From assembly GCF_056746865.1 (NCBI RefSeq), contig NZ_CM163382.1: a DNA stretch of 64,000 nt. The stretch is one strand, 5' to 3'. The translations under genes were made by a program, and so were the position numbers. The notes under the pieces are model-generated. The model searched no databases, was not told the DNA's origin, and worked only from the letters and a program-made list of their open reading frames with translations. Positions 31,984-34,090 of the stretch are shown in pieces. Position 1 is the first letter of the stretch. Every line of letters begins with the position of its first letter.

Positions 31984-33243
31984 TTATGCTTTTCTCGCTA
32001 ACGCGTCTATATCCGAAAAATACTCTTTAATTCCCTCTAGGATAGATTCTGCCACTTGTTGTTGGAATCTTGCCGTTTTCAGTTTGCGCTCTTCCTCAAC
32101 GTTACTGATAAACGCCGTTTCGACCAGAATGGAGGGAATATCAGGTGCTTTCAGCACGGCAAACCCGGCCTGTTCAACCTGATTTTTATGCAGCTTGTTG
32201 ATTTTACCGAGCTTATTCAGCACCGCTTTACCCAACTTCAGGCTGTCGGCAATGGTCAGCGACTGCACCATATCGAACATGGTGTGGTCGACATAGCGGT
32301 CACCGCTTTTGCTCACGCCGCCAATCAAGTCCGAGGCGTTCTGGGTTTGTGCCAGATATTTTGCCGCAGTACTTGTCGCGCCTTTGGTCGAAAGCGCAAA
32401 CACGGAAGAACCGCTCGGCTGGCGACTGGTAAAGGCATCAGCATGGATAGAAACAAAAAGGTCAGCACGTTGTTTCTGTGCTTTTGCTACACGCACTTGC
32501 AACGGAATGAAGATGTCTTCATTGCGCGTCATGTACACCTTCATATTACCCTCTTTTTCGATCAGAGAGCGCAGACGGCGAGCTATTTGCAATACCACGT
32601 CTTTTTCGCGTGTTTTGTATTTCCCCACCGCACCGGGGTCTTCGCCACCGTGGCCGGGGTCAAGCATAATGACAATCGGACGATCACGCCCTGCTTTACC
32701 CGGTTGTGGACCACTTTGTGCTGGCGGCACCTGCTTTTCGAGGTCGCCTTTGTTGTAATCCTCCAGCAGCGCCAGCAGCGGGTCCTGCATATCCTGTGCA
32801 TTGGCCGGATAGAGGTCCATCACCAGACGCTCTTTAAACCCGGCGACCGGCGCAAGGGCAAACAGCTGCGGTTTTACGTTTTGCTTTAATTCAAAAACCA
32901 TGCGTACGGTTTGCGGGTCAAATTGCCCGACGCGCGCCGACTTGATGAACGGGTCGTCTGCACGAATTTGTGCCGCCATCCCCTTGAGTACCGAGTTCAG
33001 GTTTACATCTTCGATATCCACCACCACACGTTCAGGGTTACTTAACGCGAACTGCTTATATTGCAGCTGACGATTTGATTCTACCGTCACGCGGGTGTAG
33101 CTGGACGCAGGCCAGACGCGTACCGCCACGACCTGGCTGACCGCAGCCAGGCTGACCTGACTTACGCTCAATAGCCACATGGCGCCCGCACCTTGCAGTA
33201 AACGACGACGGCTGATTACATAATTATAGTTAGATACCAGCAT
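31984..33243 (-). CDS. amiC: N-acetylmuramoyl-L-alanine amidase AmiC (Tat-exported)
   Basis: 419 aa; twin-arginine signal [13 protein letters not shown]; amidase_3 domain; near-identical to E. coli AmiC as recalled apart from the first few residues. Confidence 0.85.
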
Positions 33244-33899
33244 ACCTTACCTAAGCAATACAATGTTCAATAATATAACTATGCTCTAATAAATTTTTAC
33301 AGGTGTTTAAAGAAATAATCACACGTATTCTTATCTTTGCAATCTAATCTAATTTTAAATAAAGGTCAATATCTTATTTTTTGATATAAGTTTTCTTAAA
33401 TACCACGATATAAAAACATTTTATTTAAGTGATTTCTTTTAGTTTGTTTTTCAAATAAAAGGGATGTACTCATGACATTTTAAATATGTACATCATGCAC
33501 AGCAATATTATAGTTTTTATCTGATTACTGAGAAGTATCTATCAATAGAACAATGTTTTTTAGTTTGTATAGGGAAGAGTTGGGTTGAATTGAGAATAAA
33601 AACTAGAGATTACTGGGGAAGGAACTTTTCAAATCCGAAATCATGGTCTACAATGAAAAAATGATGTTCTAAGTATTCCTATCATGAATAAGAATGCACC
33701 ATATTTTGAATAGTATAATTTTATATTTATATATCCTTTACTGTACGATGATGATATTTTATGCCTGAATGACAAGGGTGTTATTTTATACCACATATAA
33801 ATTTGCAGAAAATATAAAATGAGAAGCACTGAATAATCGCGGCTTCTGGCTATGATTTAAATGTTTTTACATTTTTTCAAAGTAAATTCAGTTCAAGCA

Positions 33900-34090
33900 C
33901 CTATAACACCGTCGTCTGATTTTGGTATTACCAAAGTTGAAGAGCGGGGCGTCCATTCGTTCTTCAGACTCCTGAAGAAGCGTTCCATTGGGCTGTTATC
34001 CCAGCAGTTTCCGCGCCGGCTCATACTCTGCCTGATCTGGTATCGCCACAATAACTGCCGGAACTGCCTACGCGTATAATGACTGCCCTG
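33900..34090 (-). pseudogene. IS3-family orfB C-terminal fragment
   Basis: Minus-strand frame encodes [20 protein letters not shown], the conserved IS3-family integrase motif. Confidence 0.3.

What the first reader, a model, noticed from the sequence alone, without database searches (positions are those of the whole stretch)
31984..33900. amiC carries a different N-terminus and a foreign AT-rich 5' region
From [12 protein letters not shown] onward the protein matches E. coli AmiC as I recall it, but the first 8-9 codons (MLVSNYNYV) and the 650 bp upstream (AT-rich, ending in IS debris) do not resemble the expected argA-amiC intergenic region. The Tat motif is retained, so the gene may still work but with a replaced promoter and start.
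Basis: partly seen in the sequence, partly recalled or inferred. Interest (0 to 1): 0.35.

Follow-up and report, generated by a model that had tools for sequence, protein, structure and literature searches.

The report
Extra mosaic amiC copy on island
This is not the normal amiC gene with a swapped promoter but a second, intact copy of the cell-separation amidase gene, sitting in a transposon-littered pathogenicity island; its middle is E. coli-like and both ends and flanks come from an unknown AT-rich relative. It is an uncommon but fairly ordinary accessory gene.

Summary
The 419-aa ORF at 31984-33243 (-) is AmiC-like from ISRRRLL onward. It has a different N-terminus (MLVSNYNYV vs MSGSNTA) and about 700 bp of 25-30% GC DNA upstream, which ends in IS fragments.

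This is not the argA-adjacent amiC with a replaced promoter. It is an additional paralogue inside an IS graveyard of a pheV-inserted genomic island carrying iha, ibrAB, sodC, sitABCD and aerobactin genes.
- 57 of 5,426 complete E. coli genomes carry the cassette.
- All 57 also keep the native argA-amiC locus.
- In SMS-3-5 the two copies lie 190 kb apart.

The gene is a sharp mosaic relative to K-12:
- core (33217-32072): 96.1% identical, at most 96.8% to any native E. coli allele, and nearly all differences are synonymous;
- 5' end: about 70% identical;
- 3' end: about 69% identical, with GC3 of 30%.

Both ends differ from termini that are near-invariant across about 80 Enterobacteriaceae species. 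Best reading: recombination or gene conversion between a distant AT-rich amiC homologue and an Escherichia amiC. The product is predicted to be a functional Tat-exported septal amidase under foreign, probably H-NS-silenced, control. No donor was found and expression is untested. Interest is modest.

The parts
31132..31855 (+). IS3-family transposase fragment (pseudogene) that bounds the cassette on the amiC 3' side; it contains an Rfam isrN match at 31277-31419 (-)
   Evidence: RefSeq annotation of the identical region in strain 1517k. Multi-copy IS3 homology starts at window <=31855. isrN scores 138 bits.
31856..31983 (.). AT-rich 3' flank of the paralogue, unique to cassette-carrying genomes; no tRNA-Met or other native downstream sequence
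   Evidence: Only 57 genomes cover it. GC is about 32-36%. No tRNA anywhere in the window. No similarity to native flanks.
31984..33243 (-). Intact 419-aa AmiC paralogue: Tat signal, AMIN domain, Amidase_3 catalytic domain
   Evidence: ORF. NCBIfam AmiC NF038267 scores 792.6 bits against a cut-off of 700. Pfam AMIN covers residues 40-144 and Amidase_3 covers 192-406. PDB 4BIN AmiC match at E=8e-241. The ORF is intact in 13 of 13 copies compared.
31984..32071 (-). Divergent AT-rich 3' end of the ORF (last 28 codons plus stop); in frame, with the stop at the native position
   Evidence: 68.9% identity to K-12 over the last 90 aligned nt, against 96.1% in the core; GC3 30% against 59%. 64-74% identity to the Enterobacteriaceae compared. 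The native C-terminus [22 protein letters not shown] is near-invariant in about 80 species, whereas this copy reads [22 protein letters not shown].
32072..33217 (-). E. coli-type core (codons 10-390): Tat RR motif, AMIN domain, linker and catalytic domain
   Evidence: 96.1% identity to K-12 and at most 96.8% to any native allele in 5,425 genomes. It is closer to E. coli than to E. albertii, E. whittamii or Escherichia sp. MOD1-EC7003. Only 3 non-synonymous differences (K61Q, S203P, F337L) among about 33 sites that differ from both native E. coli alleles compared.
33218..33243 (-). Divergent 5' end (codons 1-9, MLVSNYNYV); colinear with native MSGSNTA apart from an apparent 6-nt tandem duplication (AACTAT/AATTAT)
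   Evidence: 19 of 27 nt identical to K-12 once the 6-nt repeat is removed. The maximum-likelihood breakpoint falls at 33218/33217 (alignment). The duplication is my reading of the sequence.
33244..33946 (.). AT-rich (25-30% GC) non-coding upstream region holding whatever promoter drives the paralogue; sigma-70-like candidates at 33369-33341 and 33534-33507 (-)
   Evidence: Composition. The stretch searched (33244-33900) is found only in the 57 genomes, at >=99% identity. No match in plasmids or phages. No ORF with coding character. No Rfam family. Promoter-like sites are no more frequent than in shuffles: 10 found against 6.3 +/- 2.6.
33947..34090 (-). IS3-family transposase fragment that bounds the cassette on the amiC 5' side, followed by IS110- and IS21-family debris
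   Evidence: RefSeq annotation. Multi-copy IS homology begins at window 33948. It is unrelated to the IS3 fragment on the other side, so there is no evidence of a composite transposon.

Best explanation
Window 31856-33946 is a 2.1-kb cassette carrying a second, intact copy of amiC. It lies in the IS-riddled interior of a pheV-inserted genomic island, the SMS-3-5-type GI-pheV, which carries iha, ibrAB, sodC, sitABCD and iuc/iutA. The host also keeps its ordinary argA-linked amiC.

**Mosaic structure.** Codons 10-390 are E. coli-type. Three parts belong to a much more distant, AT-rich amiC homologue, about 70% identical, which is inter-family distance:
- the ribosome-binding region and the first 9 codons;
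- the last 28 codons;
- both flanks.

**Most likely history (inferred).** A foreign AT-rich amiC homologue was carried on a mobile element. Its centre was overwritten by homologous recombination or gene conversion with a resident Escherichia amiC. The cross-overs fell in the first and last strongly conserved stretches, the SRRRLL Tat motif and [11 protein letters not shown].

**Predicted product (inferred).** A Tat-exported periplasmic N-acetylmuramoyl-L-alanine amidase with an AMIN septal-targeting domain and an E. coli-type catalytic and autoinhibitory region. It should therefore do what AmiC does, splitting septal peptidoglycan after activation by NlpD. It would be transcribed from a foreign AT-rich promoter region that is probably H-NS-repressed, not from the native promoter.

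**What is shown.** Location, copy number, mosaic boundaries, domain integrity and distribution.

**What is inferred.** The direction of the recombination, expression and activity.
For: **Second copy, not the native locus.**
- 57 of 5,426 genomes carry the flanks, and each of them has two amiC places.
- The native argA-amiC junction occurs once in 5,425 of 5,426 genomes.
- In SMS-3-5 the native copy sits beside argA and metZWV. The island copy lies between iha and ibrB, downstream of tRNA-Phe and its integrase.
- The SMS-3-5 GI-pheV limits of 3,197,159-3,289,098 come from PMC11537424.

**Mosaic.**
- Maximum-likelihood breakpoints give 70.4%, 96.1% and 68.9% identity for the three segments, with Fisher p=1e-5 and 1.6e-15 and GC3 of 59% against 30%.
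- In native genes the 3' end is not faster-evolving than the core: E. coli against Klebsiella is 82% against 79.7%.
- The termini differ from the near-invariant termini of about 80 enterobacterial species.

**The ends are homologous, not junk.** They stay in frame and keep the same stop position, and 17 of the last 28 residues are identical to K-12.

**Integrity.**
- NCBIfam AmiC scores above its cut-off, both Pfam domains are present, and the 4BIN alignment is complete.
- 13 of 13 copies are intact.
- The exact protein was seen on at least 1,000 contigs and in 1,829 index blocks.
- Surrounding island genes are mostly frameshifted pseudogenes.
Against: **Recombination history.**
- No unconverted AT-rich parent or any other protein sharing the termini was found. 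I searched 5.8 billion proteins, JGI metagenomes, plasmids and phages. The direction of the recombination is therefore unproven.
- The core matches no sampled native E. coli allele better than 96.8%. It differs at 50 sites from the native allele of SMS-3-5. The conversion was therefore not recent and did not happen in the present hosts.

**Function.**
- There is no evidence on expression. Promoter-like sites are not enriched over shuffles.
- Copies are 99.6-99.9% identical, too little variation to show purifying selection on the paralogue itself.
Confidence: 0.8

Rival explanations
1. One reading: this is the chromosome's normal amiC, and IS-mediated rearrangement or insertion of foreign DNA replaced its promoter and first codons.
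For: The N-terminus and upstream region are indeed non-native and abut IS fragments.
Against: All 57 carriers keep an intact native argA-amiC locus elsewhere. The copy lies 190 kb away inside GI-pheV. The 3' end and downstream flank are replaced as well, and no metZWV tRNAs are present. The altered 5' end is a colinear, roughly 70%-identical homologue, not IS sequence.
Confidence: 0.02
2. Reverse direction of the chimera: a complete Escherichia amiC was first captured by the island, and its two ends and flanks were later replaced by recombination with a foreign AT-rich amiC locus.
For: The breakpoint data fit this just as well. The core is clearly of E. coli descent.
Against: It needs two separate outward exchanges, or one event replacing both flanks while sparing the centre. 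The alternative needs only one internal conversion tract of 1.15 kb. The AT-rich DNA runs uninterrupted from the gene ends to both IS boundaries, as expected if it is the recipient backbone. No trace of native argA or metV flanks remains.
Confidence: 0.2
3. Silent passenger: the paralogue is an unexpressed or functionally redundant relic that survives only because the island lineage is young. It contributes nothing to the cell.
For: It lies in an IS graveyard where most neighbours are pseudogenes. The upstream DNA at 25-30% GC is typical of H-NS-silenced xenogeneic DNA (established knowledge; not tested here). Copies differ by only 0.1-0.4%, so intactness could be due to youth alone. The native amiC is always present.
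Against: The ORF is intact in every copy examined, and the exact protein recurs on at least 1,000 contigs. The ribosome-binding site geometry, Tat motif, domain set and stop position are all preserved through the recombination.
Confidence: 0.4
4. Assembly or chimeric-contig artefact that joins amiC to unrelated AT-rich DNA.
For: None beyond the unusual junctions.
Against: The same 2.1-kb cassette, at >=99.6% identity, occurs in 57 independently finished genomes and in two metagenome contigs.
Confidence: 0.005

Closest known systems
E. coli AmiC (b2817, NP_417294; structure PDB 4BIN), the Tat-exported, NlpD-activated septal N-acetylmuramoyl-L-alanine amidase
   Same: Same architecture: twin-arginine signal, AMIN domain, linker and Amidase_3 domain. 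The core is 96% identical in DNA, with only 3 substitutions across codons 10-390. It scores above the NCBIfam AmiC cut-off.
   Different: It is not at the argA/metZWV locus and is an extra copy in GI-pheV. It has a foreign n-region (MLVSNYNYV, +2 residues), a foreign last helix (11 of 28 residues changed) and a foreign AT-rich promoter region and 3' flank.
GI-pheV / PAI-pheV family of E. coli genomic islands, specifically SMS-3-5_GI-pheV (PMC11537424)
   Same: The cassette lies inside the 91.9-kb SMS-3-5 GI-pheV. Cargo includes iha, sitABCD, aerobactin genes, IS debris and ICE remnants.
   Different: That paper does not mention an amidase or amiC. The island in this window is rearranged relative to SMS-3-5, with the sit-sodC segment inverted and moved.
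Mosaic genes made by homologous recombination or gene conversion between diverged homologues (for example mosaic pbp genes of Streptococcus and Neisseria, or concerted evolution of tufA/tufB), recalled from general knowledge
   Same: Sharp identity breakpoints inside an intact reading frame, with cross-overs in the most conserved stretches.
   Different: Here the partners are a core housekeeping gene and an island-borne xenologue. No selective agent is known and the second parent has not been found.
AmiA and AmiB, the other periplasmic LytC-type amidases of E. coli
   Same: They share the Amidase_3 catalytic domain; AmiA is also a Tat substrate.
   Different: Scores fall far below their NCBIfam cut-offs: AmiA 277.7 against 400, AmiB 216.7 against 532. 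AmiA also lacks the AMIN domain (established knowledge; not tested here). The paralogue is clearly of the AmiC type.

Membership tests
AmiC amidase family (NCBIfam NF038267) | Full-length match above the curated cut-off | tested here: met
   792.6 bits against a cut-off of 700, residues 4-410.
AmiC amidase family | N-terminal twin-arginine (Tat) signal peptide | tested here: met
   The sequence reads [25 protein letters not shown], identical to K-12 from the I before SRRR onward; only the n-region differs. Export itself was not tested.
AmiC amidase family | AMIN septal-targeting domain followed by an Amidase_3 catalytic domain | tested here: met
   PF11741 covers residues 40-144 (E=2e-21) and PF01520 covers 192-406 (E=7e-52). 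Residues 36-418 align to 4BIN with only K61Q, S203P and F337L differing before the tail.
AmiC amidase family | Amidase activity, NlpD activation and septal localisation | not testable with these tools
   Inferred from near-identity of the core to E. coli AmiC.
Orthologue of E. coli amiC (the argA-amiC-metZWV locus) | Conserved genomic position next to argA and the tRNA-Met cluster | tested here: not met
   No similarity to argA or the intergenic region and no tRNA in the window. The native locus exists separately in carrier genomes. The gene is therefore a paralogue or xenologue, not the orthologue.
GI-pheV genomic island cargo | Location between tRNA-Phe (pheV) with its integrase and the island's far end | tested here: met
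   Shown in SMS-3-5: tRNA-Phe at 3,197,159, integrase at 3,197,411, amiC copy at 3,227,446, with island limits from PMC11537424. The window does not include pheV. It is collinear with the SMS-3-5 island over 28579-41941.
Recombinant (mosaic) gene | Statistically supported breakpoints separating segments of different ancestry | tested here: met
   Segment identities of 70.4%, 96.1% and 68.9%; log-likelihood -255.1 against -297.6 for a single rate; Fisher p=1e-5 and 1.6e-15.
Recombinant (mosaic) gene | Both parental lineages identified | tested here: not met
   The core parent is Escherichia amiC. The parent of the AT-rich ends was not found.

The most novel reading that the evidence does not exclude
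A foreign, AT-rich amidase gene carried by a mobile element was 'domesticated' by gene conversion from the host's own amiC. It acquired the host-type AMIN and catalytic/autoinhibitory regions that interact with the E. coli divisome and NlpD, while keeping a foreign, differently regulated promoter. This conditionally expressed second septal amidase would be maintained by selection in the SMS-3-5-type GI-pheV lineages, many of them poultry-associated, because it aids cell separation or envelope integrity under host-associated stress.
Probability: 0.1. Interest if true: 0.5.

Novelty: new member of a known kind. Interest (0 to 1): 0.3.

Why it matters
**For annotation.** Genomes of these lineages contain two genes called amiC. 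Pan-genome, MLST-like or knockout work that assumes a single copy could be misled. A native amiC deletion in such strains might show no chaining phenotype if the island copy is expressed.

**For evolution.** This is a clean example of a housekeeping gene and an island-borne xenologue exchanging sequence inside an intact reading frame. Both cross-overs fall in the most conserved motifs.

**For physiology.** If the copy is expressed, it gives some extraintestinal and poultry-associated E. coli an extra, separately regulated septal amidase.

None of this changes what is known about how AmiC works.

Tried and rejected
**Native flanks.** I looked for argA, the argA-amiC intergenic region and tRNA-Met next to the gene. 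None is present.

**Origin at the metV hotspot.** GR19 'tRNA-Met..amiC' in PMC12928451 suggested an island at metV might have picked up amiC by imprecise excision. No native or metV-island 3' flank matches the cassette, and only the 57 carriers match it. I dropped the idea.

**Search for the AT-rich parent.**
- A C-terminal 55-aa query against 5.8 billion proteins returned only short fragments. The best non-self hits were ordinary native tails at 82% identity or less.
- An X-masked full-length query keeping only the termini gave 3 candidates and 1 hit, an E. coli fragment of the same gene.
- A degenerate DNA pattern for [11 protein letters not shown] in JGI metagenomes gave 2 hits, both this same gene.
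- Plasmid and phage collections had no match to the flanks.
- Proteus mirabilis amiC is no closer to the ends than E. coli is: 62% against 69%.

**Genome-collection scan.** It returned only native amiC loci from other species. These were useful as a comparison panel but yielded no second context for the cassette.

**Content of the AT-rich flanks.**
- No Rfam family lies in the AT-rich flanks; the only match, isrN, lies in the adjacent IS3 fragment.
- The upstream flank has no credible ORF.
- Neither flank has repeats elsewhere in the window.
- Short repeats within the region look like chance.

**Composite transposon.** The two bounding IS3-family fragments are unrelated to each other.

**Selection test on the paralogue.** There were only 3 ORF variants among 13 copies, too few to analyse.

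**Literature.** I found no paper describing an island-borne amiC in E. coli.

Full report
**Observation.** The ORF at 31984..33243 on the minus strand encodes 419 aa beginning [25 protein letters not shown]. K-12 AmiC, fetched from NC_000913.3, begins [23 protein letters not shown].
- A DNA alignment with the K-12 locus shows 95-100% identity per 100-nt block from the codon for I10 onward, and no credible alignment upstream.
- GC content is 25-30% over 33200-33950, against 51-57% in the gene's centre.
- RefSeq annotation of an identical stretch in strain 1517k shows IS3-, IS110- and IS21-family pseudogenes immediately beyond. Multi-copy IS homology starts at window 33948.

Two things were missed.
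- The last 88 nt of the ORF are just as divergent. K-12 has ...[30 protein letters not shown]; this copy has ...[30 protein letters not shown].
- The 128 bp downstream (31856-31983) are also AT-rich and unrelated to the native amiC-metV spacer.

**It is a second copy, not the native gene.** The upstream region searched (33244-33900) and the 3' flank each occur in only 57 of 5,426 complete E. coli genomes, always at >=99% identity and always on the chromosome.
- A search with the core alone finds amiC in 5,425 genomes, with two places in the carriers (5,483 places in all).
- The native argA-amiC junction occurs exactly once in the same 5,425 genomes.
- In SMS-3-5 the native 417-aa amiC (3,036,388-3,037,641) sits between argA and a small insert next to the three tRNA-Met genes.
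- The 419-aa copy (3,227,446-3,228,705) lies 190 kb away. It is downstream of tRNA-Phe (3,197,159) and a tyrosine integrase, among ICE remnants, iha, ibrB and ibrA-like genes, sodC, sitABCD and a mass of IS pseudogenes.
- PMC11537424 defines SMS-3-5_GI-pheV as 3,197,159-3,289,098, with the most divergent intP4 integrase of its dataset. It does not mention an amidase.
- Strain 1517k additionally shows iucABCD-iutA and plasmid-like genes (a ProQ/FinO-family gene, a PerC-family regulator and ssb) in the same island.
- The window is collinear with the SMS-3-5 island over 28579-41941. Its sit-sodC segment (4079-13725) is inverted and moved relative to SMS-3-5.

**Anatomy of the gene.** I removed an apparent 6-nt tandem duplication in the n-region (AACTAT/AATTAT, giving NYNY) and compared the gene with K-12. 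A three-segment model then places breakpoints at window 33218/33217 and 32072/32071.

| Segment | Differences | Identity to K-12 |
|---|---|---|
| 5' end | 8 of 27 | 70.4% |
| Core | 44 of 1137 | 96.1% |
| 3' end | 28 of 90 | 68.9% |

- Each end differs from the core: Fisher p=1e-5 for the 5' end and 1.6e-15 for the 3' end.
- GC3 is 59% in the core and 30% in the tail; K-12 has 60% and 53%.
- This is not a fast-evolving-terminus effect. Between native genes the 3' end is as conserved as the core, for example 83% against 82.4% for E. coli versus Salmonella and 82% against 79.7% for E. coli versus Klebsiella.
- The native termini MSGSxxxxSRRR and [22 protein letters not shown] are nearly invariant across about 80 Enterobacteriaceae species recovered from the genome collection.
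- The tail is nevertheless homologous. It is in frame, has the same length and stop position, and 17 of its last 28 residues are identical to K-12.
- The 15 nt before the start codon keep a similar ribosome-binding-site geometry, with roughly 10 of 15 nt matching by eye.
- The tail is about as far from E. coli (69%) as the Proteus mirabilis tail is (69%), but it is not on the Proteus line (62%).

**The core.** It is E. coli sensu stricto: 96.1% identity to K-12, against 93.7%, 92.1% and 89.3% to Escherichia sp. MOD1-EC7003, E. whittamii and E. albertii.
- It matches no native allele among 5,425 genomes better than 96.8%.
- It differs from the native allele of SMS-3-5 at 50 core sites. For comparison, K-12 and the SMS-3-5 native allele differ at 33 alignment positions over the whole gene.
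- Only three differences are non-synonymous: K61Q, S203P and F337L. Proline at the 203 position is common in Amidase_3 motifs, from my own knowledge.
- The 5' half of the core is about 98-99% identical to K-12 and the 3' half about 94%, so the core may itself be patchy.

**Protein.** It scores 792.6 bits on NCBIfam AmiC, above the cut-off of 700. It has Pfam AMIN (residues 40-144) and Amidase_3 (192-406), and it aligns to the AmiC structure 4BIN over residues 36-418.
- The twin-arginine motif, h-region and AxA site are identical to K-12.
- All 13 copies I could compare are intact.
- The exact protein is a RefSeq MULTISPECIES AmiC entry seen on at least 1,000 contigs.

**Explanation.** The simplest history is homologous recombination between two amiC homologues. 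One is an Escherichia gene, which supplied the 1.15-kb centre. The other is a distant AT-rich homologue, which supplied the ends and both flanks.
- The AT-rich DNA is continuous from the gene ends out to both IS boundaries. A single internal tract explains the pattern.
- I therefore favour a foreign, element-borne amiC whose centre was converted by a resident amiC. The junctions lie in the first and last highly conserved stretches, SRRRLL and [11 protein letters not shown].
- The reverse direction cannot be excluded.
- The conversion is not recent in the present hosts.

Functionally the product should behave as AmiC, that is, Tat export, AMIN-mediated septal targeting and NlpD-dependent activation. 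This is inferred from near-identity and was not tested.
- Transcription must start in the foreign AT-rich region. Candidate -35/-10 pairs exist at 33369-33341 and 33534-33507, but such sites are no more frequent than in shuffled sequence.
- DNA of this composition is typically H-NS-bound (established knowledge), so the copy may be silent under laboratory conditions.

**What led nowhere.** No donor for the ends was found in any of the following.
- 5.8 billion proteins. One search returned only short fragments. A second, with the core masked by X, returned only a fragment of the same gene.
- JGI metagenomes. Two hits were found, both this same gene.
- Plasmid and phage collections.

I considered imprecise excision of a metV-linked island, prompted by PMC12928451, and dropped it because no native or metV-island flank matches. 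The flanks contain no Rfam family, no credible ORF in the upstream region and no repeat elsewhere in the window. Variation among copies is too low to test selection. Literature searches found no description of this paralogue.

**Verdict.** This is a real feature, correctly seen but wrongly framed. It is an undescribed, island-borne, mosaic paralogue of a well-known enzyme, already auto-annotated as AmiC.
- It has practical relevance for anyone doing amiC genetics or pan-genomics in these lineages.
- It is a tidy example of recombination between a core gene and an island xenologue.
- It does not challenge current understanding.
- Interest is 0.3.

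Noticed in passing
window 31277-31419 (-): Full-length Rfam match to isrN, a Salmonella island-encoded Hfq-binding sRNA (138 bits against a gathering score of 44). It lies inside the IS3-family pseudogene that bounds the amiC cassette, which suggests this 'sRNA' family is part of an IS3-type element.
   Followed up: partly
window 9246-9367 (+): Full-length Rfam match to STnc490, an Hfq-binding RNA (129 bits against a gathering score of 56). It lies next to IS-like ORFs between the sit operon and the sodC segment.
   Followed up: no
window 43359-44972 (+): A group II intron. Its catalytic domain matches Rfam at 44886-44972 (64 bits). It follows a long ORF that corresponds to the ltrA reverse transcriptase/maturase, which RefSeq annotates as a pseudogene with an internal stop in strains 1517k and SMS-3-5.
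   Followed up: no
window 4079-13725 versus SMS-3-5 (L095 39017-50000): The sitABCD-sodC segment is inverted and lies on the other side of iha compared with SMS-3-5 and strain 1517k. The island in this window has therefore undergone a rearrangement, presumably IS-mediated. Another 2.5-kb IS segment (50741-53273) is an inverted copy of L095 16506-19037.
   Followed up: partly
L097 20901-26130 (SMS-3-5 3,030,901-3,036,130): In SMS-3-5 a 5-kb insert separates the tRNA-Met cluster from the native amiC. It encodes a phosphoglycerate dehydrogenase, a KpsF/GutQ-family isomerase, a MalY/PatB-family protein, a PTS EIIC subunit and a PRD-domain regulator. PMC12928451 lists a 36-kb genomic region at the same tRNA-Met..amiC site in other strains. 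The 3' side of native amiC is thus itself an insertion hotspot.
   Followed up: no
L001 5960-7326 and L095 4171-5537: TIGR03756 and TIGR03757 integrating-conjugative-element genes are present as pseudogenes. Strain 1517k also carries plasmid-like genes in the same island (a ProQ/FinO-family gene, a PerC-family regulator and ssb; L003 13526-14412). The island is therefore a composite of decayed ICE and plasmid DNA.
   Followed up: no
and summaries (E. coli genomes): One of the 5,426 complete E. coli genomes has no amiC or argA-amiC match at all. In another, the native locus is on a record labelled as a plasmid. These are probably a mislabelled or unusual assembly.
   Followed up: no
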